A stretch of DNA of 64,000 bases from Escherichia phage AV110. The position numbers were made by a program, and so were the translations under genes. Positions within the stretch are counted from its first letter, which is position 1. Each line of letters opens with the position of its first letter. The stretch is taken from sequence record OR352940.1; one strand, given 5' to 3'. The notes below the pieces were generated by a model that saw nothing but the letters and a program-made list of their open reading frames with translations, did no database searches and was not told the DNA's origin. Positions 1 through 9,302 of the stretch are shown piece by piece.

Positions 1-96
1 AATCTTTACATATCTTTCACTAATTTCCATTATGTCATTAATGAAAGTTGTTTTACCAGCATTATCCGGGCCATCTACTAAAATAATTTTAGCCAT
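1..96 (-). CDS. P-loop NTPase/kinase-like protein, N-terminal fragment (gene runs off window start)
   Basis: Minus-strand ATG at 94-96; translated N-terminus MAKIILVDGPDNAGKTTFIN has a Walker A motif (GxxxxGKT). Not UvsX-like. Confidence 0.5.
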   Translation of the reverse strand, partial: MAKIILVDGPDNAGKTTFINDIMEISERYVKI

Positions 97-97
97 T

Positions 98-997
98 TTA
101 TTCCTCGATTACGACATCTTCATATTTAGGTATATTATACGGCGAAGAAATTAAAGCATTAAAGTAGATGAACTCACCAAGACCTGGATGGAATACTTCT
201 TCAGGATTTTCGAAATATTGAATTTTCGGACGCCCTTTAAGAATTTGATAGTACTCTGTTTTAGTTGGTTTAAAAATTCGAATCAGCGCTTCTTCAGGAT
301 ACTTATTTCTGTCGAAGCTATTATTTGGATCGGTTATATAAAGCGGTTGGCCTAATTGAATTGCACATTCAACCACTTGTTCAAAACGATAGCACGGGTC
401 ACTAATTCGAAATGGATGAAAAATACCATCTAGATAAATAGGAGCCAAATCACCTACAAGACGCTGCATGATGGAAGGACGTATAACTTTCTGCGTTACG
501 ATAATCTTATTACCATCTGCACCTGCGTTAACCAGCACTTCTTTTTGACGTTCATTCAACACAGTAGTTTGAAGTGAACGATTAACCGACAACATATCAG
601 TTTTTAAGAATTCATCAATATAAAAACGTGGTTTATTAGGGTCTGCAGTGATATTGAAATTGAATTCCACATCAAAAGCGCCGTCATATCCAGTGATATC
701 TGTGATTAGAAAATCACAGTCATAATAAGCAATTAATGAATCAACCACAAATCCATTTTCAGACCAGAAATATTTACGAGTGTTATACGCGTTATCTTTA
801 TACCATAATGGAACAAACTTAAATTCTGGAAAAAGACGTTCGCATTCTTTAATATCAGATGCATTACGTGGATATGTAATCACATCACCCGGATTAGCAC
901 GGTGCAAATGAAGTTGGAAGTTGCCATCCTTAAGGATAGCATACTGTCCAGTTTCATAAGACCGCATACTCAAGATTGGTACGCGGAAAATAGCCAT
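98..997 (-). CDS. hypothetical protein (299 aa); positional candidate for the hmC-DNA glycosyltransferase (T4 beta-gt slot)
   Basis: Long minus-strand ORF next to gene 42 homologue; no motif recognised; function inferred from synteny only. Confidence 0.55.
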   Translation of the reverse strand: MAIFRVPILSMRSYETGQYAILKDGNFQLHLHRANPGDVITYPRNASDIKECERLFPEFKFVPLWYKDNAYNTRKYFWSENGFVVDSLIAYYDCDFLITDITGYDGAFDVEFNFNITADPNKPRFYIDEFLKTDMLSVNRSLQTTVLNERQKEVLVNAGADGNKIIVTQKVIRPSIMQRLVGDLAPIYLDGIFHPFRISDPCYRFEQVVECAIQLGQPLYITDPNNSFDRNKYPEEALIRIFKPTKTEYYQILKGRPKIQYFENPEEVFHPGLGEFIYFNALISSPYNIPKYEDVVIEE

Positions 998-1713
998 TAG
1001 TCAAGGAATCCTTTAACATAATCAAAATCACGTTCAAACACATGGGCACTTACCATGGTATGAGTATAATCACCAACTTCTACACCGCATTCGTTAGCGA
1101 TATAATGAAGTAATTTTCCTTGGAGATAAAAATCCAACTGCATAACAACAGCACAGTTCTGAGAACGCATATGACAGTGGGTATAAAGCTTACCATCACG
1201 AATATAATAAGTCACTGAGTCAGTACATGGATATTCAAGTGTTTCGTCTGAATCAAGCAAAGCCTGATCAGAACTTTCTAGAATTTGGAACACAACTCTT
1301 CGGGAGTTAGGCTTCTCTTTAAGTTCTTTTAGAAGAGCTGGTAATTGAGCCGCAATGCGAGGACCATAGAAAGTGTTGAAGTTCGCCGGCAAAACATCTG
1401 ATTTTGGTTTAGAAATAAATTTAGCGACATTAGGATATGTCTTAAACGCTTCTTCTGCGTTGGTACCACCAGAAATCATAAACTTCCAGAAGTCTTCGGC
1501 ATATTCATAAGAGATGCGGTTAATACGTGGGTCGGTCATTTTGAATGATGATGGAGTGTCAACAACTACTGTCATAGACCCAATTTCATTACAACGTCCA
1601 ATACGAGAATCAGTTACGAATTCCGGGTTTTCTAAAATTTCACGATTGACTGCTTTAAATGCGGTTTGAAAATCTGCGGCTTTGATATATTTCATTGTGT
1701 TATGTTTTCCCAT
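997..1713 (-). CDS. 42: dCMP hydroxymethylase-like (thymidylate synthase superfamily)
   Basis: 238 aa; segment YPCTDSVTYYIRDGKLYTHCHMRSQNCAV resembles the T4 gp42 catalytic-Cys region as I recall it; sits upstream of gene 43 as in T4. Confidence 0.75.
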   Translation of the reverse strand: MGKHNTMKYIKAADFQTAFKAVNREILENPEFVTDSRIGRCNEIGSMTVVVDTPSSFKMTDPRINRISYEYAEDFWKFMISGGTNAEEAFKTYPNVAKFISKPKSDVLPANFNTFYGPRIAAQLPALLKELKEKPNSRRVVFQILESSDQALLDSDETLEYPCTDSVTYYIRDGKLYTHCHMRSQNCAVVMQLDFYLQGKLLHYIANECGVEVGDYTHTMVSAHVFERDFDYVKGFLD

Positions 1714-1755
1714 GTTTACCTCAATACAATTTATTATATACTCAATTCGTAAAGC

Positions 1756-1995
1756 TTATTTGAATTTCTTGACAATGTTGACATAACGTAAAGCTTCAGC
1801 ATCGATACTTCCAAGAACACTATGAAGAAATGCATCAGCGTAGTATTCCAATTGAACAGGTTCTTTAATCACTTTAGCCGCTTTAGTTTCAAACAGGCCC
1901 ATCAGGGCCTTTTTAAGAATTTGTTCATTAGTGTTCAGATTCATAGTCAAAATCTCTTCATTAAGTTGGTGGTTAAAAGTTTTTCTAGAAATCAT
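1756..1995 (-). CDS. hypothetical protein (79 aa)
   Basis: ORF in operon orientation; 4-nt overlap with next gene. Confidence 0.45.
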   Translation of the reverse strand: MISRKTFNHQLNEEILTMNLNTNEQILKKALMGLFETKAAKVIKEPVQLEYYADAFLHSVLGSIDAEALRYVNIVKKFK

Positions 1996-3152
1996 TCCGG
2001 GTACCTCAAAGCGTCATCAGAGTTAGTTATATCAATAATAGATATAGAGTTTTCTGCTAACCCGTTTTTAGATAATTGACGTTTATAATATCTTTCACAA
2101 TATGTACACGTCGTCCCGCAGATTTCATTAGCACAATCGAAATCTGGATGTCTGAACCACCTTTTTTCTAAAAAGCCATCTAACAAAGAGGTTTCAATAT
2201 TTACTGTATGTGAAAACTCAGTTTCGTTTTCAAGAGTGAAAATAGTCTCTAAAGGCTTCCACAGTTCTAACAAATTACCTTCAAACTTTTCAGAAGCGTA
2301 TGCTTCAAGAACTTTCAAAATGTAGTCTGTGCTACCTGTACGTCCTGAAACTTTGAATTGAGTGATACCAATATCATTATAAAGTTTCAAATCTTGAGGA
2401 CGAACAAAACGAGTTCTCAACCAGTTAAATGGGTCTGTATCACGAGCTTTAATACAGTGCTGCATAGGATATCCGTTTAAGGATTTAGCATCATCAGCTG
2501 TAACATCAGTACTATGGAAAATATAGCAAGAGTCACGATAGCTACAATGTGTTGTATACCCTTTACCAGCATTAGAACAGAACTCATTTACAAGAACTTC
2601 AAATATTATATTGTTCTTATTGCAAAACTCTGCTGCACGCTTCAGGAAAGAAACTGAACGGTTCTTATGAATTCCACAGCAGACCTTTTTGATATTATAT
2701 TGGTCATGCAAGTATTTGATTTGAGTTACAGCATCGACATGTAGAATTGTTGAAACTTCAATCTCAATGTCTTTATTGACTTCACGAACAATTTCCATAA
2801 CAACAGGGTTAGCGATAGTAATACGCCATACGCCTATTGACCAAAGATACTGAACATAATCCTGAATAGCTTTCTTCTTCCACTCAACTAGTTCTCTTTT
2901 TGAACCAGGATTTATCGTGTTGAGTGTATAGTTAAAGCAAATACCTAATTCGTTACAACGTTTAACGTAATCTTCTAACATCTTTTTGTCAACGTCAGGA
3001 AGCCTAAAATCAGGTCTGGCTGCTACAAAAGCCATTTCTCTTGTAGAGCCATATACTTCGTTTATCAAGCTATTAGGATAGGTTTTATTGAGCTCTACGA
3101 TTTTATCAAGAAGAGCTAAATCAAAATTTGTTCCGATTTTAAAAGTATTCAT
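1992..3152 (-). CDS. Cys-rich enzyme-like protein (386 aa) with C-terminal CxxxCxYC motif; function unknown
   Basis: Long ORF; C-terminal ...CANEICGTTCTYCERYY contains a CX3CX2C Fe-S-type motif with the aromatic residue typical of radical-SAM clusters, but at the C-terminus. Confidence 0.65.
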   Translation of the reverse strand: MNTFKIGTNFDLALLDKIVELNKTYPNSLINEVYGSTREMAFVAARPDFRLPDVDKKMLEDYVKRCNELGICFNYTLNTINPGSKRELVEWKKKAIQDYVQYLWSIGVWRITIANPVVMEIVREVNKDIEIEVSTILHVDAVTQIKYLHDQYNIKKVCCGIHKNRSVSFLKRAAEFCNKNNIIFEVLVNEFCSNAGKGYTTHCSYRDSCYIFHSTDVTADDAKSLNGYPMQHCIKARDTDPFNWLRTRFVRPQDLKLYNDIGITQFKVSGRTGSTDYILKVLEAYASEKFEGNLLELWKPLETIFTLENETEFSHTVNIETSLLDGFLEKRWFRHPDFDCANEICGTTCTYCERYYKRQLSKNGLAENSISIIDITNSDDALRYPE

Positions 3153-3211
3153 TTTTTTTGCATCTCACGTTAATTGATGCGATGGTTTTTTTGCAGGTCT
3201 TACTTAAATTA

Positions 3212-3613
3212 TTATAGATTCGGTTTATACGATTTAAATGTTTCGAATTCGCCTTTATTCATAAGAGCTTTGAATTCGTCAGGACGCATAGCTTTGTCGT
3301 CGATAATCCAATCATATACTGGTTTATGTGTTAGCAAATTATGGTACTTCAAGCCAATGTTTGCCAAGTTCTGAATCAGACTTGGGAGAATGTCAATTGC
3401 TATACGACCAGGACCTACTGACTTCATACCGCGAGCAGTGTAAAGCGTTATTGTATGCCCTGCATCATACAGAGCATTAATGGCAGACACCATTTCGACG
3501 TCCGGTTTGAAGTTCACATAATCACGATTGTTATTCCACTCTGTTATACAATCATCGACATCAAAACAAAGATTAAGCATGTTTTCTACACGGTGCATTA
3601 GATTCGTTCCCAT
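3212..3613 (-). CDS. small HAD-superfamily phosphatase-like protein (KdsC-like)
   Basis: 133 aa; motif FDVDDCIT matches HAD motif I (DxDx[T/V]). Confidence 0.6.
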   Translation of the reverse strand: MGTNLMHRVENMLNLCFDVDDCITEWNNNRDYVNFKPDVEMVSAINALYDAGHTITLYTARGMKSVGPGRIAIDILPSLIQNLANIGLKYHNLLTHKPVYDWIIDDKAMRPDEFKALMNKGEFETFKSYKPNL

Positions 3614-5283
3614 TGATGAGTGATATCGCCACCGATTGGACGATAAGAAACACCAGTTTCTTTATCAGTTAGTACCCATTTACCAGGATTTTTTGTAATC
3701 AGAGTAGCCGTTACAGGTTCTGCTACGTCATAACTAATAGAGCCGTCCTGAAGTACACGGCCCATGTTACGTAATTGCTTAGTCAGAAGTTCCATACCTT
3801 TATAATATGCGGCTACCGCTTTAAGTGGATTATTCTTGAAATAACCACCTAATGCAATCCAGATAATTGCTACAGCCAAATGATGATATTCATTAAACGA
3901 ACTCAGCTTTCCATATTTGTAAACTAATGGATTGATGTTAATAGTCACATTACAAGTTGTTTCATCAATAGTAAACTGTCCCCAGGTCGGATTAGCGTTG
4001 AATTCATCATAACCTGAAACAGCGTAAAGCACTTTAGCTTCGTCGTACAATTTCGGCCCGTAAATCTTGGTTTCGCCAAAATATCCACGAGGGTCGATAA
4101 ACTTGACTTCGCCGTTATCAGTAATCATAGTATTACTGAAGTTCGGGTCACCATGAATAACAGAGTACTGTCCCTGAGAACGGTTATGATAACGAATAAG
4201 GTGTTCTAAAGCTTGTTTCAGCATTGGCTTCAGACGTCCAATCTTAGTGTAGTTCACATGTGTGATTTTACCAAATGAATCAATCAATGGTTGAATGCTT
4301 TCACAACGATCAATAACTTTCGTATAGAATTCTTTAGTGAAATCACGACGAACAGTTTCAGGACTTACAAAATAAGTGTCTGCGCTGAATTTCAGTGCAT
4401 CTAAAATTGCATCAATAATTTGTGGACGAGCAAGACTTGATTTTGATTTAATATATTCAAATGCCGGCTTACCTTTAATGCGTTCCATTTCAAAGTTATT
4501 TTCATTAACAGAAACTAACTGAGGAACTGAATCTGATTTCACTTTCAAATACCACGAAATCTCATCTTTCTGAAGAGCTCGACCCTGTTCGGTTAATGCG
4601 AATTTAGTTACAGTTTCTTCGCCAATTTCAACTGCATTAAAACTACGGTTCAGTTCACGAACTTCATGGGCCTTTTCAAGTTTAGGCATATCACCAAGGT
4701 CGATGATATTCATAAGCTCTGATTTATTGAATGCGCCGCTGTAAAGGAATTCTACGAAATCACGTCCTTTGCAGTATTCATGAATTTCCTCATCGGTAGA
4801 ACCCATATAGAATTCCCAGTCTTTGAACTGATAAATTCCTACAACATTACCGCCTGTTTCACCTACATTAGTGATATTTTCACCATCGAAATTATACCGA
4901 CATTCATCACCCTTAACATAGATTGCGTTAACATTCCAAGACCAAGAACCAAAATCGGGAATAATATCACACCAGTTAACAATTACATTATGGCCGTCTA
5001 AATCTTTGTGTAATTTAGCAAGAGCATAAGCAGAACCATACGCTTCATCAACTGTACGAATAGTCACATTGAACCCTTCTTGCTCACAATAAGCTCGAAC
5101 AGTTTCAGCAAATTTTGAATGAACTACTACAATAATTTCATCTGCGCCAAGGTCAGAATAAATTGTATACAAATTGCTCAGAATAGTGTCTTGCTTATAG
5201 TTAACAAGCACCTTAGGAATATGATGCGTTATTGGATACAAACGAGTTGCCAGTCCAGCACCAAGAATAACAGCTTTTTTCAT
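3598..5283 (-). CDS. bifunctional sugar-1-phosphate nucleotidyltransferase / APH-ChoK-like kinase
   Basis: 561 aa; N-terminus MKKAVILGAGLATRLYPIT is the G-x-G-T-R-L NDP-sugar pyrophosphorylase signature; C-terminal half has HGDPNFSN...FIDPRGYFG (Brenner HGD kinase motif plus DFG-like). Confidence 0.8.
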   Translation of the reverse strand: MKKAVILGAGLATRLYPITHHIPKVLVNYKQDTILSNLYTIYSDLGADEIIVVVHSKFAETVRAYCEQEGFNVTIRTVDEAYGSAYALAKLHKDLDGHNVIVNWCDIIPDFGSWSWNVNAIYVKGDECRYNFDGENITNVGETGGNVVGIYQFKDWEFYMGSTDEEIHEYCKGRDFVEFLYSGAFNKSELMNIIDLGDMPKLEKAHEVRELNRSFNAVEIGEETVTKFALTEQGRALQKDEISWYLKVKSDSVPQLVSVNENNFEMERIKGKPAFEYIKSKSSLARPQIIDAILDALKFSADTYFVSPETVRRDFTKEFYTKVIDRCESIQPLIDSFGKITHVNYTKIGRLKPMLKQALEHLIRYHNRSQGQYSVIHGDPNFSNTMITDNGEVKFIDPRGYFGETKIYGPKLYDEAKVLYAVSGYDEFNANPTWGQFTIDETTCNVTININPLVYKYGKLSSFNEYHHLAVAIIWIALGGYFKNNPLKAVAAYYKGMELLTKQLRNMGRVLQDGSISYDVAEPVTATLITKNPGKWVLTDKETGVSYRPIGGDITHQWERI

Positions 5284-5324
5284 GTTGAAGTCCTCATTGG
5301 TAAGTAGGAGTATTGTACACTATT

Positions 5325-5468
5325 CTAGTTAAAGCATTCATACTTTGCCTGTAGACCAATCATAATCCATCCAATTACAAGTGTTGGAATCATTACCGGA
5401 GCCGTTAAGCTCCAGTAGATAGTCATGGCAAGCATCAATAGTAAAAGTCCTATTGTTATTGCTTTCAT
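5325..5468 (-). CDS. small hydrophobic membrane protein (47 aa), below ORF-track cutoff
   Basis: ATG overlaps stop of upstream SIS gene (ATGA); GAGG upstream; product MKAITIGLLLLMLAMTIYWSLTAPVMIPTLVIGWIMIGLQAKYECFN is a predicted TM peptide. Confidence 0.35.
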   Translation of the reverse strand: MKAITIGLLLLMLAMTIYWSLTAPVMIPTLVIGWIMIGLQAKYECFN

Positions 5469-6100
5469 TGTTCGCCTCGTAACATGGCACCTAGTGCACC
5501 ACCTGGATGGAACTTAAGGAAGTCATTAGAGGTAAATCCACGTTCAGACGAAAGGTTGATAGCGAACGTATCGATAAGCGCTAACAACAATGTAGTAGAC
5601 ATTGTCGGAGCTAAAGAGTTCTCGTCAACTTCTACCGCGATACCGGTACAGAACGTATAATCAAAAAGAGCTTCGTATTCTTGTGGAATGTCAGGGTTAC
5701 AATGTAACAGAATCTGTTTAACCTGAGGACGAATCATACGAAGATGTTTAGCAACACCTATCATTTCTTCAGTCTTACCAGAACGACTGATGTGAACTAA
5801 TACATCATTAGGTGCAATAAATCCTGCGTCACCATGAGAATAATGCCCAGTGTTCAAGTACATACTTGGGATACCGAGTGAAGCAAAAGTCTCGGAAGCT
5901 TTAGTTGCGATATTAGCGTTCTTACCAACACCTGTAATAATTACTCGGCTTTCATAATTACTAAGTCCCGGGCGTCGAAGAGTTTCTAGAATAGCATTAT
6001 AACGAGCAGGGTTTTGACTAATTACTTTAGCCATAGTGGCAAGAGATGAAGCTTGTTTTACGATTGCGTCAATAGCGATAGTGATTGGTGTAGTTTTCAT
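5465..6100 (-). CDS. SIS-domain sugar-phosphate isomerase, KdsD/GutQ (arabinose-5-phosphate isomerase)-like
   Basis: 211 aa; ITGVGKNANIATK and HYSHGDAGFI..ISRSGKTEE resemble KdsD SIS motifs; C-terminal FHPGGALG is KdsD-like; no CBS domains. Confidence 0.8.
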   Translation of the reverse strand: MKTTPITIAIDAIVKQASSLATMAKVISQNPARYNAILETLRRPGLSNYESRVIITGVGKNANIATKASETFASLGIPSMYLNTGHYSHGDAGFIAPNDVLVHISRSGKTEEMIGVAKHLRMIRPQVKQILLHCNPDIPQEYEALFDYTFCTGIAVEVDENSLAPTMSTTLLLALIDTFAINLSSERGFTSNDFLKFHPGGALGAMLRGEQ

Positions 6101-6140
6101 ATTTCTCTCATTTAATTAGTTGGCCGTCCTTGGCATTATA

Positions 6141-8852
6141 TCAAAAATCAAACATATCGAACAGAGATGCTTTCTTCTCGTAATCGAGTTTAGCTGCTGA
6201 TGTGAATCCTTCAAGTGGTTTAATAAATGTCTTCTCAAGGAGAACAGTGTAGTCCATCCAATGAAGTACGTCGTCTTTAATTAAATCTGTGATTTCAGTA
6301 CCAGAAGGCCATGCGATACATTTATCACCGAATGGGTTTCCTTCACGTAAAGGCAGAACATATACTTTTTCACCTTCTACAACTTGTGGTGCATCAATAT
6401 TACCTTTGATAGCTCGGTTATATGTCAGAATTCCACGAATATGGAACGGGCATTTAGGACCCGGGAATCCACCTACGTCATATTTAGCAATGTTATTCGC
6501 AGAAGATACCGACGCGATGCTAATATAATTCAATTGACGGAATTCTTTTTCAAACTCTTTAAAATATTCTTGTAATGATTCTTCACCTTCTTGAAGCATA
6601 CGACGAATACATTCTTTAAGAGCTTTCTGTACTGCTTTAGGAGTCGAAGATTTCTGAGTCTCTAGACCCATGATTTTGAGTTTAGGCTCAGCGTAACGAG
6701 TGCCTTCCATATCCCACACGTTTAATGCATAACGTTTCTTACCAGTCCAGAATCCACCAATACCTTTAGAACCGAGCGGAGGGCCAGCAATAGCTTCTCG
6801 GTCCATGAACATTAAGTGTTGTTTATTGTTCATGTATTCACACATTTCACGGAAACCTCTATCAATAGCAGGTTCCATACGTTCACGAGCGAACTTATCT
6901 AAGAAGTCTACCCAATGGTTGGTATCACGGAATTTAGATTCACCAACCTTATCGATAATTTTATCGGCAGATACGTAAATAGAGTCTGTATCACCATATA
7001 GAACGAAAGCTTCACCTTCTGTACCACAAACTTCATTCAGATATTCATTAACTTTACGTTCAATCCACTGTAAAGCCATTTGTCCGAATGTTGTGATTGC
7101 AGTAGCATTACGCAAATCATAATAACGGAACCAAACGTTGCCAAGTGCACCATAAAGTGAGTTGATAAGCAATTTACGGTTAATTTGTGCGGTCATACCT
7201 GCAACTTCAGTACGTTGAGCTCTAAACAACATTTCATTAAGAGATTTAGCAGACAACTTTTTAATCTTTTCTTTAATCTCATCACTGAAGTCGAAACGAT
7301 AATCAACATCTAATGGTTCGTCAACAGAAAGATTAGGATTATGCAATGCCTCTTTAATTATTTCACCATTACGTTGAGCTGCAAGCATATAACCTTTATG
7401 TTCTTTACGTTGATTAAAGACCTTAGTGATTTCAGTTGGAACTACACCATCACGGTCTTTATAATACATCATGCCGTTAGGAGAGCAACTGTACACATCT
7501 GAAGGACGTTCAGCGATTGCGTTAATATAATCATGCAATGGAGCTACTTTAAACGTTCCTGCTATTGTTTCCGGGCTAATATTCACTTGGCGAATAATAC
7601 TTGGATACAGAGATGTAAGGTCGAAACTCATTACATATTTGTATCGATTTGGAATAGGTTCCTTAACAAAAGCGCCAGGATAAGGTTGAACCGGGTGAGA
7701 ACGACCTTGTGGAATCACCTTGTTTTGTTCTTTAAGGCTATTAAAAATAATAGCATCCCAAGTTTTAATTGGACTGAACACAGATTGAATCTGAATTTTA
7801 GCATAATAACCCATGTCCAAGCTCAAGTTGATGAACTGACGCTTAGAATCAATTTGCAATACACGATACACGTCGATAATGTTATAAGAAATATATCGTT
7901 GGTGATTGCTTTCACGAAGCTTAGAAATAGGGCCGTCATATTTCAGTTTACCAACGTTCAATTCAAATTCTGAAATGTAATCCAGAGAATACGACGGTTG
8001 ATTGGTAAAAGAGAATTTTTTGTAAAGGTCAATGTAATCAAGAACAGAGATACCGAACAATGTAATGATTTCACGAGAACCATACATGTTTTCGATAACT
8101 TTAACACGAGTTTTACGATGCGGCGATAAACGTTTCGCAGTAGATTCGCCAAAAATATTCTTGATTCGGTTATACACATATGGAATATCAAATGACTCAA
8201 CGTTCCATCCAGTCAAAATGACAGGAGTTTTCTGTTGCCAGAAGTTGAGATATTCCATCAACAATTCTTTTTCGTTATCGAACGGCATATAAATGATTTT
8301 ATCGATAATTTCAGATGGAACTTCATCACCGCCTTGTTCTTGAAGCTTAGCAGCGATTTCAATAGACCATTCTTCTACATTACCATATGGAGAATTCAAT
8401 AGATCAAATACGTAGAACCTGTCGTCAATTGAGTCATAATGGGTGATAGCATCAATCGGATGTTTTGCTTGTGACGGCTCAGGGAACCCGTCCGGAGATG
8501 TTACTTCGATGTCGAAGTTAGCCACACGAATTTTTGTATGGTCGTATTTGATTTCATAGTTATAAGTGTCAGACAAATACGCCAATTTGAAATCGTCCAT
8601 GCCAAGTGCTTCAAGTCCGATATCTTCCATGCGTTTAATCCATTGGGAGGCATCACGCATATTAGCGAACAACTTACGAGTACACGGCTTACCGTAGATA
8701 TCGAAATATTTCGTAGCCTGACTTTCCGGACAATGAGCAAACAGTGATGGTTTATATTCTACTTCACGAGTACGTTCACGGCCATTAGAATCGATGTAAC
8801 GTTCAAAAATTGAATCACCAATCTGTTCAACCGTTAAGTAAAATTCTTTCAT
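6141..8852 (-). CDS. 43: DNA polymerase (family B), gp43
   Basis: 903 aa; exonuclease motifs (FDIEV, ..FDIPYVY), polymerase motifs (DxxSLYPS, YGDTDS); N-terminus MKEFYLTVEQIGDSIFERY matches RB69 gp43 as recalled. Confidence 0.97.
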   Translation of the reverse strand: MKEFYLTVEQIGDSIFERYIDSNGRERTREVEYKPSLFAHCPESQATKYFDIYGKPCTRKLFANMRDASQWIKRMEDIGLEALGMDDFKLAYLSDTYNYEIKYDHTKIRVANFDIEVTSPDGFPEPSQAKHPIDAITHYDSIDDRFYVFDLLNSPYGNVEEWSIEIAAKLQEQGGDEVPSEIIDKIIYMPFDNEKELLMEYLNFWQQKTPVILTGWNVESFDIPYVYNRIKNIFGESTAKRLSPHRKTRVKVIENMYGSREIITLFGISVLDYIDLYKKFSFTNQPSYSLDYISEFELNVGKLKYDGPISKLRESNHQRYISYNIIDVYRVLQIDSKRQFINLSLDMGYYAKIQIQSVFSPIKTWDAIIFNSLKEQNKVIPQGRSHPVQPYPGAFVKEPIPNRYKYVMSFDLTSLYPSIIRQVNISPETIAGTFKVAPLHDYINAIAERPSDVYSCSPNGMMYYKDRDGVVPTEITKVFNQRKEHKGYMLAAQRNGEIIKEALHNPNLSVDEPLDVDYRFDFSDEIKEKIKKLSAKSLNEMLFRAQRTEVAGMTAQINRKLLINSLYGALGNVWFRYYDLRNATAITTFGQMALQWIERKVNEYLNEVCGTEGEAFVLYGDTDSIYVSADKIIDKVGESKFRDTNHWVDFLDKFARERMEPAIDRGFREMCEYMNNKQHLMFMDREAIAGPPLGSKGIGGFWTGKKRYALNVWDMEGTRYAEPKLKIMGLETQKSSTPKAVQKALKECIRRMLQEGEESLQEYFKEFEKEFRQLNYISIASVSSANNIAKYDVGGFPGPKCPFHIRGILTYNRAIKGNIDAPQVVEGEKVYVLPLREGNPFGDKCIAWPSGTEITDLIKDDVLHWMDYTVLLEKTFIKPLEGFTSAAKLDYEKKASLFDMFDF

Positions 8853-8913
8853 TTAATTTCCTTTAGACGAGTTATTGTCTTTTGTTTGTTGATGAACTTA
8901 TTATACTCCAAAT

Positions 8914-8927
8914 GGGACCGAAGTCCC
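8914..8927 (-). promoter_or_regulatory. GGGAC-UUCG-GUCCC hairpin between regA and gene 43 (possible regA terminator / gp43 translational operator); TATAAT-like -10 just downstream
   Basis: Perfect 5-bp stem with UUCG tetraloop on the minus transcript, followed by AUUU; about 60 nt upstream of the gene 43 ATG. Confidence 0.35.
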
Positions 8928-8933
8928 ATTGCT

Positions 8934-9302
8934 TTAATTACCAATTGTATATTTTGCTTTCAAAGTCCAGTCATCTTTCTGTTTAAAAGAGATAACACGG
9001 AAGTTATTAGTCAGGCCAAACAGATCTTCACGAGCAGAGTCTTCAATAACAATCAAGCCCCAGTCTTCAAGCAACTGAGCAATCGAATCACGTCGCTGAT
9101 AGTCTTCACCATCAATATCAACCTGACGTCCGTCCATACGCAGCATTTCTTTAAAGTGGACGATGTAATATTTACCTTGCTTTTGGAGGATATGACAGGA
9201 CTGATAAAGAACTTTATCCTTGTTATTAGCGATGCCCATACGGGTCAGAGTCTCTTTGACTTTCAGAAAATCTTCGGGGTTCTTCAATTTAATTTCGATC
9301 AT
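8934..9302 (-). CDS. regA: translational repressor RegA
   Basis: Start moved to internal MIEIKLKNPEDFLKVKETLTRMGIANNKDKVLYQSCHILQ, which matches T4 RegA as recalled; synteny 43-regA-62. Confidence 0.85.
   Translation of the reverse strand: MIEIKLKNPEDFLKVKETLTRMGIANNKDKVLYQSCHILQKQGKYYIVHFKEMLRMDGRQVDIDGEDYQRRDSIAQLLEDWGLIVIEDSAREDLFGLTNNFRVISFKQKDDWTLKAKYTIGN

What the first reader, a model, noticed from the sequence alone, without database searches (positions are those of the whole stretch)
3598..5283. Fused sugar-1-phosphate nucleotidyltransferase / anomeric-kinase-like protein
A single polypeptide combines the G-x-G-T-R-L pyrophosphorylase signature with an HGD/DFG-type small-molecule kinase domain. 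This recalls bifunctional salvage enzymes such as fucokinase/GDP-fucose pyrophosphorylase. In a phage it would allow one-protein activation of a free sugar to an NDP-sugar donor. Nucleotide specificity (UDP/CDP/GDP/dTDP) cannot be read from the sequence.
Basis: partly seen in the sequence, partly recalled or inferred. Interest (0 to 1): 0.6.

Follow-up and report, generated by a model that had tools for sequence, protein, structure and literature searches.

The report
Phage UDP-arabinose synthesis enzyme (AfhE-like)
This is a real two-domain phage enzyme (a sugar kinase fused to a sugar-nucleotide-forming enzyme) that helps make the UDP-arabinose used to decorate the phage's DNA cytosines, but it is already described in RB69-type phages and, according to a 2026 paper, biochemically characterised in a phage that appears to be a close relative.

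Summary

The window is a Mosigvirus (RB69-like T4-type phage). The gene is RB69 ORF53_52c / gp52:53, proposed in 2018 as a UDP-arabinose synthesis candidate. A 2026 NAR paper equates it with AfhE of phage HY126, reported as a D-arabinose-5-phosphate kinase plus UDP-D-arabinose pyrophosphorylase.

It is a kinase/pyrophosphorylase fusion, but not a fucokinase/GDP-fucose-pyrophosphorylase relative, because the kinase fold differs. It is also most likely not a free-sugar salvage enzyme.

With its neighbours it forms a de novo route:
- the SIS isomerase converts ribulose-5-P to arabinose-5-P;
- the kinase domain makes arabinofuranose-1,5-bisphosphate;
- the HAD phosphatase makes arabinofuranose-1-P;
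- the nucleotidyltransferase domain makes UDP-Araf.

UDP-Araf then feeds arabinosylation of 5-hydroxycytosine in the DNA. The finding is already known and of low interest. Minor leads are listed separately.

The parts
3598..5283 (-). Whole gene: 561-aa bifunctional kinase/nucleotidyltransferase. It is equivalent to RB69 ORF53_52c / gp52:53 and is AfhE-like.
   Evidence: ORF call. 99% identical over full length to protein cluster P0001 (230 member sequences). 98.9% amino-acid identity to Bas46 bas46_0146. 98.4% to RB69, where it is split in two by a known sequencing error (PMC6024577).
4669..5283 (-). N-terminal sugar-1-phosphate nucleotidyltransferase domain (about aa 1-205).
5212..5262 (-). 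NTP-binding signature loop GAGLATRLYPITHHIPK (aa 8-24).
   Evidence: Aligns to the LicC loop AAGLGTRLRPLTENTPK. G10, R14, L15 and K24 are invariant in 42 homologs. Translation verified.
3769..4656 (-). C-terminal small-molecule kinase domain of the choline-kinase/APH fold (about aa 210-505).
4132..4155 (-). Kinase catalytic loop HGDPNFSN (H377-N384).
   Evidence: H377, G378, D379, S383 and N384 are invariant. Translation verified. It corresponds to the HxDxxxxN motif of APH/choline kinases (general knowledge).
4084..4095 (-). Metal-binding motif D397-P-R-G400 (the DFG equivalent).
   Evidence: I396, D397, P398, R399 and G400 are invariant. Translation verified.
3601..3768 (-). C-terminal tail of about 55 aa (aa 506-561), present in the closer homologs aligned (36-75% identity, including the T4-like phages) and absent from the more distant ones. 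Function unknown.
   Evidence: Alignment columns 690-751 are occupied only by the closer group of homologs. Modelled with small strands at pLDDT 79-89.
3212..3613 (-). HAD-superfamily phosphatase (AfhF-like), translationally coupled to the target. It is proposed to remove the 5-phosphate from arabinofuranose-1,5-bisphosphate.
   Evidence: 100% identical over aa 5-133 to PDB 9iqw. NCBIfam TIGR01689 capsule biosynthesis phosphatase E 4e-13, below that family's curated cut-off. The target's stop codon overlaps the ATG of MHRVENML (TAATG at 3596..3600). Role as summarised in PMC13326640.
5465..6100 (-). SIS-domain arabinose-5-phosphate isomerase (KpsF/GutQ/KdsD-like, without CBS domains).
   Evidence: Pfam SIS E 8e-10. 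NCBIfam kpsF E 9e-32 and KdsD E 4e-30, both below the curated cut-offs. phrog_5670 'arabinose 5-phosphate isomerase' E 2e-116. 32% identical (E 1e-28) to the SIS domain that is fused to homologs of the target.
997..1713 (-). Thymidylate-synthase-like enzyme. It is usually annotated as dCMP hydroxymethylase but is reported to be a dCMP 5-hydroxylase. It makes the acceptor base.
   Evidence: Pfam Thymidylat_synt E 2e-15. About 97.5% identical to PDB 9iqc/9ir2/9iqu. RB69 gp48 was shown to give 5-hydroxy-dC in vivo (PMC13326640).
98..997 (-). Candidate first DNA arabinosyltransferase (equivalent to RB69 gp46:47), the consumer of the NDP-arabinose.
   Evidence: No Pfam hit. phrog_3891, function unknown. 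Conserved next to the TS homolog in JS10 (68%) and DLP2 (46%). Role proposed in PMC13326640.

Best explanation
The gene encodes an AfhE-type bifunctional enzyme of the phage pathway that makes UDP-D-arabinofuranose for arabinosylation of 5-hydroxycytosine in phage DNA.

Proposed route:
1. The neighbouring SIS isomerase converts host ribulose-5-phosphate to D-arabinose-5-phosphate.
2. The C-terminal choline-kinase/APH-fold domain uses ATP to phosphorylate the anomeric hydroxyl, giving arabinofuranose-1,5-bisphosphate.
3. The translationally coupled HAD phosphatase removes the 5-phosphate, giving arabinofuranose-1-phosphate.
4. The N-terminal nucleotidyltransferase domain condenses this with UTP to give UDP-Araf and pyrophosphate.
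5. Phage glycosyltransferases transfer the arabinose onto 5-hydroxycytosine, which is made by the adjacent thymidylate-synthase-like hydroxylase.

Shown here: the two domains and their intact catalytic motifs, the conserved and fused gene context, and the near-identity to phages whose DNA carries the modification.

Taken from the literature, second-hand: the A5P-kinase and UDP-arabinose pyrophosphorylase activities, and the phosphatase step.

My inference: keeping the 5-phosphate on during anomeric phosphorylation locks the pentose in the furanose ring. This would explain how a furanosyl donor is made without a mutase.
For: Domains and motifs:
- Pfam NTP_transferase E 8.8e-10. APH family in 20 of 42 homologs.
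- Invariant G10/R14/L15/K24/D106/D195/D198 and K227/E241/H377-G-D379/N384/D397.
- AF2 model pLDDT 93.9.

Gene context:
- The SIS gene has KpsF/KdsD-level hits of E 1e-30 to 1e-32.
- The HAD gene is coupled to the target by a TAATG overlap.
- The TS homolog and a glycosyltransferase lie in the same minus-strand block.
- The SIS-fusion-HAD order is kept in Acinetobacter phage DLP2 (57/56/59% identity) and in cyanophage S-SRM01.

Fusion ('Rosetta stone') evidence: proteins of 890-955 aa carry HAD, SIS, nucleotidyltransferase and kinase domains in one chain. Their SIS part is 32% identical (E 1e-28) to this window's SIS gene.

Link to experiments:
- 98.9% amino-acid identity to Bas46 and 98.9% nucleotide identity to NicPhage. 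Both have DNA reported to carry arabinosylated 5-hydroxy-dC (PMC13326640; PMC13390438).
- RB69 ORF53_52c expresses as a single band of about 64 kDa (PMC6024577).
- UDP-Araf serves as donor for the DLP3 glycosyltransferases in vitro.
- PDB 9iqw is 100% identical to this window's HAD protein, and 9iqc/9ir2/9iqu are about 97.5% identical to its TS homolog. Proteins essentially identical to this phage's have therefore been crystallised. I infer, without proof, that these are the HY126 entries.
Against: - I could not read the primary biochemical paper (He et al.) or Mahler et al.. The kinase substrate, the order of steps and the UTP specificity therefore rest on one secondary summary.
- That same paper's Table 1 still labels the HAD protein 'dephosphorylates Araf5p to Ara' and the kinase 'Phosphorylates Ara to Araf1p'. 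The alternative order has thus been entertained by specialists.
- The sequence of HY126 AfhE was not available, so identity to the characterised enzyme is inferred, not measured.
- The window protein's own kinase-family Pfam hits are all below threshold.
- No base-specifying residue for UTP could be identified from the alignment.
- Dhakavirus JS10 keeps the fusion, HAD, TS homolog and GT genes but has no SIS gene in the locus. The phage isomerase is therefore dispensable or replaced by a host enzyme there.
Confidence: 0.85

Rival explanations
1. Free-sugar salvage order. The HAD phosphatase first makes free D-arabinose from arabinose-5-phosphate, or arabinose is scavenged. The kinase domain then phosphorylates the anomeric hydroxyl of the free sugar, and the nucleotidyltransferase domain makes NDP-arabinose.
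Against: The main text of PMC13326640, citing He et al., states that AfhE phosphorylates Araf5P to the 1,5-bisphosphate and that AfhF then dephosphorylates it. Free D-arabinose is mainly in the pyranose form (general chemistry), whereas NMR of the DNA sugar shows the furanose form. The bisphosphate route gives the furanose directly. The SIS-kinase-HAD-transferase logic also mirrors the heptose pathway, in which the kinase acts on the sugar phosphate (general knowledge). HddC is the best profile match in the PDB.
Confidence: 0.1
2. The chemistry is the same, but the nucleotide or the sugar differs. The enzyme would make CDP-, GDP-, ADP- or dTDP-arabinose, or activate another pentose or alcohol phosphate, as the LicA/LicC pair does for CDP-choline.
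For: The top structural matches include CTP-, dTTP-, UTP- and GTP-using enzymes with similar scores: LicC 20.8, RmlA 20.6, GalU 19.4, GMPPB 18.7, HddC 17.8. No conserved base-reading residue could be assigned. The best matches for the two domains include the LicC/LicA pair of the phosphocholine pathway.
Against: AfhE is reported as a UDP-D-arabinose pyrophosphorylase, and UDP-Araf works as donor for the related DLP3 arabinosyltransferases in vitro. Arabinose is the sugar found in the DNA of near-identical phages. The linked SIS gene is of the arabinose-5-phosphate isomerase type.
Confidence: 0.04
3. The C-terminal domain is an antibiotic phosphotransferase or protein kinase unrelated to sugar activation, fused to a nucleotidyltransferase by accident. 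Alternatively, the protein is a GlmU, as many GenBank records annotate it.
Confidence: 0.01

Closest known systems
AfhE of E. coli phage HY126 (He et al., Nat Chem Biol 2026), also known as RB69 ORF53_52c / gp52:53 (Thomas et al. 2018; PMC13326640) and DLP3 gp82
   Same: Same architecture: N-terminal nucleotidyltransferase and C-terminal kinase, 561 aa in RB69. Same neighbours: SIS isomerase, HAD phosphatase (AfhF), TS-like hydroxylase and glycosyltransferase. Same phage genus as RB69. 98.4% identical to the RB69 protein. The neighbouring proteins are 100% and about 97.5% identical to crystallised proteins 9iqw and 9iqc.
   Different: Nothing of substance was found.
HldE / HddA+HddC with GmhA and GmhB (ADP- and GDP-heptose pathways)
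   Different: From general knowledge, the HldE kinase has the PfkB/ribokinase fold and its transferase is of the cytidylyltransferase type. Here the kinase has the choline-kinase/APH fold and the transferase is RmlA/LicC-like. The sugar is a pentose, not a heptose. The product feeds DNA modification, not LPS.
AmgK/MurU (MurNAc recycling) and LicA/LicC (phosphocholine) enzyme pairs
   Different: Those are separate proteins acting on an unphosphorylated substrate, with no phosphatase step in between. Here the two are fused, the nucleotidyltransferase comes first in the chain, and the kinase substrate is reported to be a sugar 5-phosphate.
   Same: A bifunctional kinase plus pyrophosphorylase in one chain, with the pyrophosphorylase domain at the N terminus, yielding an NDP-sugar.
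   Different: FKP uses a GHMP-fold kinase, salvages a free sugar and makes a GDP-sugar (general knowledge). None of these applies here.

Membership tests
AfhE-type bifunctional arabinose-5-phosphate kinase / UDP-arabinose pyrophosphorylase (phage 5-arabinosyl-hydroxycytosine pathway) | N-terminal RmlA/LicC-like nucleotidyltransferase domain with an intact G-x-x-x-R-L...P-K loop and acidic metal ligands | tested here: met
AfhE-type bifunctional arabinose-5-phosphate kinase / UDP-arabinose pyrophosphorylase (phage 5-arabinosyl-hydroxycytosine pathway) | C-terminal choline-kinase/APH-fold kinase domain with the catalytic HxD...N loop, metal-binding Asp, and Lys/Glu pair | tested here: met
AfhE-type bifunctional arabinose-5-phosphate kinase / UDP-arabinose pyrophosphorylase (phage 5-arabinosyl-hydroxycytosine pathway) | Encoded next to an AfhF-type HAD phosphatase and an arabinose-5-phosphate isomerase, in a phage that also has a TS-like dCMP hydroxylase and DNA arabinosyltransferase(s) | tested here: met
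   for the gene assignments. The HAD protein is 100% identical to PDB 9iqw and the TS homolog about 97.5% to 9iqc. Synteny is kept in DLP2, JS10 and S-SRM01.
AfhE-type bifunctional arabinose-5-phosphate kinase / UDP-arabinose pyrophosphorylase (phage 5-arabinosyl-hydroxycytosine pathway) | Close sequence identity to a member named in the literature | tested here: met
   98.4% to RB69 gp52:53, 98.9% to Bas46, and about 56% to the DLP2 protein, a Lazarusvirus relative of DLP3. Identity to HY126 AfhE itself was not measurable because the sequence is not held.
AfhE-type bifunctional arabinose-5-phosphate kinase / UDP-arabinose pyrophosphorylase (phage 5-arabinosyl-hydroxycytosine pathway) | Enzymatic activities: A5P 1-kinase, and Ara-1-P + UTP -> UDP-Araf | not testable with these tools
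   Known only from the summary of He et al. 2026 in PMC13326640. The primary paper is not held.
FKP (L-fucokinase/GDP-L-fucose pyrophosphorylase) | GHMP-superfamily kinase domain | tested here: not met
HldE (heptose 7-phosphate kinase / heptose 1-phosphate adenylyltransferase) | PfkB/ribokinase-fold kinase plus cytidylyltransferase-fold (CTP_transf_like) adenylyltransferase | tested here: not met
   No PfkB or CTP_transf_like hits. The folds found are APH-like and RmlA-like. The resemblance is in pathway logic only.
GlmU (a common database annotation for this gene) | C-terminal left-handed beta-helix acetyltransferase domain; equivalog-level score | tested here: not met
   NCBIfam glmU models score about 22 bits against cut-offs of 367-505, and only over aa 3-106. 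The C-terminal half is a kinase fold.
Aminoglycoside phosphotransferases (APH, antibiotic resistance) | APH fold | tested here: met
Aminoglycoside phosphotransferases (APH, antibiotic resistance) | Stand-alone resistance enzyme acting on an antibiotic | tested here: not met
   The domain is always fused to a nucleotidyltransferase and linked or fused to SIS and HAD sugar-phosphate enzymes. Antibiotic activity itself cannot be tested here.

The most novel reading that the evidence does not exclude
The enzyme family may reach well beyond DNA arabinosylation in T4-like phages. Cyanophage S-SRM01 places the SIS-fusion-HAD triad among epimerases, a NodZ-like fucosyltransferase and GT2 enzymes, with no TS-like hydroxylase in the locus. 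Giant-virus-like contigs, and one eukaryote transcript, carry all four activities (HAD+SIS+NT+kinase) in a single chain of about 900-950 aa. These could make a furanosyl pentose nucleotide, or a different sugar nucleotide, for virion or cell-surface glycans rather than for DNA. Within this window, the roughly 55-aa C-terminal tail that only the closer homologs have might dock the HAD phosphatase and channel the bisphosphate intermediate.
Probability: 0.25. Interest if true: 0.45.

Novelty: already known. Interest (0 to 1): 0.15.

Why it matters
This enzyme supplies the activated arabinose that Mosigvirus phages attach to 5-hydroxycytosine. The modification is reported to block several restriction enzymes, and related cytosine hypermodifications protect phage DNA from CRISPR-Cas targeting (PMC13326640). 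It is also recognised by some type IV restriction systems such as BrxU (PMC13390438). Because the gene, its pathway role and its biochemistry are already published, the practical value here is annotation. Public phage records mostly call it 'hypothetical protein', 'bifunctional protein GlmU' or 'nucleotidyl transferase'. PHROGs lists its family as unknown function, and NCBIfam has no model that reaches threshold. These entries could be corrected to AfhE-like arabinose-5-phosphate kinase / UDP-arabinose pyrophosphorylase.

Tried and rejected
1. Reading the primary papers. He et al. (Nat Chem Biol 2026) and Mahler et al. (Cell Host Microbe 2025) are not held. Searches for 'AfhE', 'HY126', 'UDP-arabinofuranose' and similar terms returned only PMC13326640. 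One search failed on term syntax.
2. Confirming that PDB 9iqw/9iqc are the HY126 structures. No held paper cites these codes. I modelled the HAD protein from a single sequence in order to read the entry title through Foldseek, but the model was poor (pLDDT 43.5) and the matches were meaningless (best E about 1). The link remains an inference from 100% and about 97.5% sequence identity.
3. Looking for a solved AfhE structure. None is in the PDB sequence copy, with either the single sequence (best hit LicC, E 2e-5) or the family profile.
4. Sequence similarity between the window's small HAD protein and the HAD_2 domain of the four-domain fusions. None was detectable by BLASTP. They belong to different HAD subfamilies, so that part of the fusion argument rests on function class only.
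5. Promoter and terminator scan of 1..9000. Counts were at or below the shuffled expectation (27 against 32.4; 4 against 5.2), so no operon boundaries can be claimed.
6. Reading nucleotide specificity from the alignment. The position five residues before the invariant G83, where from memory UTP/dTTP enzymes have a Gln, is variable in this family. No call was made.
7. Rejected interpretations: GlmU, FKP, HldE, antibiotic kinase and protein kinase (see the membership tests).
8. My first tblastn script found nothing because all loci are stored in one file. It was rerun correctly.
Full report
**What is there.** Window 3598..5283 is a single 561-aa ORF on the minus strand. It lies in a tightly packed minus-strand block:
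- gp43 DNA polymerase (6141..8852)
- a SIS-domain protein (5465..6100)
- a 47-codon hydrophobic ORF (5325..5468)
- the target
- a 133-aa HAD-like protein (3212..3613)
- a U32-peptidase-like protein (1992..3152)
- a 79-aa ORF
- a thymidylate-synthase homolog (997..1713)
- a 299-aa protein (98..997)

The flanking genes (gp43, RegA, gp62/44, gp45) and megablast identify the window as a Mosigvirus, that is, an RB69-like T4-type coliphage. The target is 95-99% identical in nucleotide sequence in 147 records, with best hits Shigella phage JK36 and Escherichia phage NicPhage at 98.9%.

**Checking the observation.** The fusion is real.
- The N-terminal ~100 residues reach Pfam's curated threshold for NTP_transferase (E 8.8e-10).
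- The window protein's own kinase hits (Fructosamin_kin, EcKL, RIO1) are below threshold. Across 42 homologs, however, 20 hit Pfam APH (best E 6e-10).
- In an alignment spanning 29-75% identity to the query, the expected catalytic residues of both halves are invariant (coordinates verified). These are G10, R14, L15, K24, D106, D195 and D198 in the transferase half, and K227, E241, H377-G-D379, N384 and D397-P-R-G400 in the kinase half.
- An AlphaFold2 model built on that alignment is confident (pLDDT 93.9, pTM 0.90).

The P-loop-like signature reads G-L-A-T-R-L, not G-x-G-T-R-L. The 'DFG' is D-P-R-G.

**What it is.** The gene has a publication history.
- Thomas et al. 2018 (PMC6024577) showed that RB69 ORF053c and ORF052c are one 561-aa gene split by a sequencing error. 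They expressed it as a single band of about 64 kDa and proposed it, together with the SIS gene ORF055c, as a candidate for UDP-arabinose synthesis. My tblastn sees the same two-piece match to the RB69 reference at 98.4%.
- The BASEL phage Bas46 record annotates the ortholog as 'putative enzyme involved in UDP-arabinose biosynthesis'. It is 98.9% identical in amino-acid sequence.
- A 2026 NAR paper (PMC13326640) revised the modification to arabinosylated 5-hydroxycytosine, with alpha- and beta-D-arabinofuranose shown by NMR. It showed that the TS homolog makes 5-hydroxy-dCMP. It also equates RB69 gp52:53 with AfhE of phage HY126.
- Citing He et al. [quoted passage not shown] It describes the HAD protein AfhF as a Mg-dependent phosphatase that converts the 1,5-bisphosphate to arabinofuranose-1-phosphate.
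- A third paper shows that NicPhage DNA carries mono- and di-arabinosyl-dC (PMC13390438).

I could not read He et al. or Mahler et al. 2025. The enzymology is therefore second-hand.

**Independent support gathered here.**
1. Solved structures. The PDB holds a 134-aa 'Capsule biosynthesis protein' (9iqw) that is 100% identical to this window's HAD protein over aa 5-133. It also holds 'Thymidylate synthase' entries 9iqc/9ir2/9iqu with six differences in 238 residues from this window's TS homolog. The 9iqw construct starts at MHRVENML, exactly the ATG that overlaps the target's stop codon (TAATG). I infer that these are the He et al. HY126 structures, which would make HY126 a near-twin of this phage. 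I could not confirm the entry titles.
2. Gene neighbourhood. The SIS-fusion-HAD order is kept in Acinetobacter phage DLP2 (57/56/59% identity, followed by the TS homolog and a GT) and in cyanophage S-SRM01 (30/27% identity; the HAD gene is annotated as a 3'-phosphatase).
3. Fusions. Proteins of about 890-955 aa carry HAD_2 + SIS + nucleotidyltransferase + kinase in a single chain. Their SIS part is 32% identical (E 1e-28) to this window's SIS gene. This ties the four activities into one pathway.
4. Isomerase type. The SIS protein scores E 1e-30 to 1e-32 against the KpsF/KdsD arabinose-5-phosphate isomerase models, though below their curated cut-offs.

**How it most likely works.**
1. Ribulose-5-P is converted to arabinose-5-P by the SIS isomerase.
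2. Arabinose-5-P is converted to arabinofuranose-1,5-bisphosphate by the kinase domain, using ATP.
3. The bisphosphate is converted to arabinofuranose-1-P by the HAD phosphatase.
4. Arabinofuranose-1-P is converted to UDP-Araf by the transferase domain, using UTP.
5. Arabinose is transferred to 5-hydroxycytosine in DNA.

Steps 2-4 are literature claims. Steps 1 and 5 are proposals by the authors of PMC13326640, supported by my domain assignments.

With O5 phosphorylated, the pentose can only close as a furanose. The anomeric phosphate then fixes that ring before the 5-phosphate is removed. This would explain how a furanosyl donor is made without a pyranose-furanose mutase.

The logic is the same as in the heptose pathway: GmhA isomerase, HldE/HddA kinase, GmhB HAD phosphatase, HldE/HddC transferase (general knowledge). 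HddC is the best profile match in the PDB. The folds differ from HldE, however. In fold terms the closest analogues are the LicA/LicC and AmgK/MurU pairs.

- Right: a bifunctional kinase/pyrophosphorylase that makes an NDP-sugar donor in a phage, with arabinose among the candidate sugars.
- Wrong or unsupported: the FKP analogy as kinship, since FKP's kinase is GHMP-fold and none appears; a free sugar as substrate; and 'one-protein' activation, since a phosphatase acts between the two half-reactions.

**Novelty and score.** The gene, its fused architecture, its pathway role and, reportedly, its biochemistry are already published. A specialist would not be surprised. What remains is mostly annotation hygiene. 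Most records call it hypothetical, GlmU or nucleotidyl transferase. Its PHROG family is 'unknown function'. Interest 0.15; novelty 'already known'.

Residual leads:
- the C-terminal tail that only the closer homologs have;
- the much more diverged copy in Dhakavirus JS10, which has no SIS gene in the locus;
- the cyanophage and giant-virus-like relatives, whose product and acceptor are unknown;
- the U32-family gene in the same block.

Noticed in passing
window 1992..3152 (-): A 386-aa U32-peptidase-family protein (Pfam PF01136 E 7e-11; weak NCBIfam hit to UbiU) sits inside the modification gene block. From general knowledge, the U32 family includes the O2-independent hydroxylation factors UbiU/UbiV, RlhA (5-hydroxycytidine in 23S rRNA) and TrhP (5-hydroxyuridine in tRNA). 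The TS-like hydroxylase is reported to need O2, so this protein could give the phage an anaerobic route to 5-hydroxycytosine in the gut. PMC13326640 lists it only as 'sugar or heterocycle reductase'. A homolog was found in the Mosigvirus locus only, not in the JS10 or DLP2 loci.
   Followed up: partly
window 5325..5468 (-): A 47-codon, strongly hydrophobic ORF (MKAITIGLLLLMLAMTIYWSLTAPVMIPTLVIGWIMIGLQAKYECFN, GRAVY 1.31) lies between the SIS gene and the target. Its ATG overlaps the SIS stop codon (ATGA). It is annotated in Bas46 (bas46_0147) and is 55% conserved in JS10. Function unknown; probably a small membrane peptide.
   Followed up: partly
L002 6001..8781 (NCBI GCA_013558355.1 contig JACCDH010973257.1); also P0088, P0089, P0091, P0094: Single-chain HAD_2 + SIS + nucleotidyltransferase + kinase proteins (890-955 aa) are about 31-35% identical to the target. 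The P0084 copies sit in giant-virus-like contexts: a MutS protein with an HNH domain, an RNA polymerase Rpb2 of 1290 aa, and compact genes. One member comes from a eukaryote transcriptome. This suggests a complete ribulose-5-P to NDP-pentose pathway in one polypeptide outside phages.
   Followed up: partly
L005 (Escherichia phage JS10, Dhakavirus) 4971..9175: JS10 keeps the fusion, HAD, TS homolog and GT genes but has no SIS gene in the locus. Its fusion protein is only 42% identical to the window's, while its neighbours are 62-80% identical. It may rely on the host KdsD/GutQ isomerases, or it may activate a different sugar.
   Followed up: partly
L006 (Synechococcus phage S-SRM01) 4411..6823 and flanks: The SIS-fusion-HAD triad occurs in a cyanophage among two nucleotide-sugar epimerases, a NodZ-like fucosyltransferase, GT2 enzymes and a methyltransferase, with no TS-like hydroxylase nearby. 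The product may serve something other than 5-hydroxycytosine arabinosylation.
   Followed up: no
window 3596..3613 (-): The longest HAD ORF starts at 3613 (MGTNLMHRV...). The crystallised construct, PDB 9iqw, starts at the second ATG (3598..3596), which overlaps the target's TAA stop as TAATG. The shorter, translationally coupled start is probably the real one.
   Followed up: yes
window 3601..3768 (-), aa 506-561 of the target: A C-terminal tail of about 55 aa (…ITKNPGKWVLTDKETGVSYRPIGGDITHQWERI) is present in the closer homologs aligned, which include the T4-like phages, and is absent from the more distant ones. It is modelled at moderate confidence (pLDDT 79-89). No function is assigned in the papers I could read.
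   Followed up: partly
window 997..1713 (-): This gene is annotated as 'dCMP hydroxymethylase' in Bas46 and falls in PHROG 'thymidylate synthase' families. The RB69 ortholog is reported to be a dCMP 5-hydroxylase with a probable flavin cofactor (PMC13326640). PDB 9iqc/9ir2/9iqu are about 97.5% identical. The database annotation is probably out of date.
   Followed up: partly
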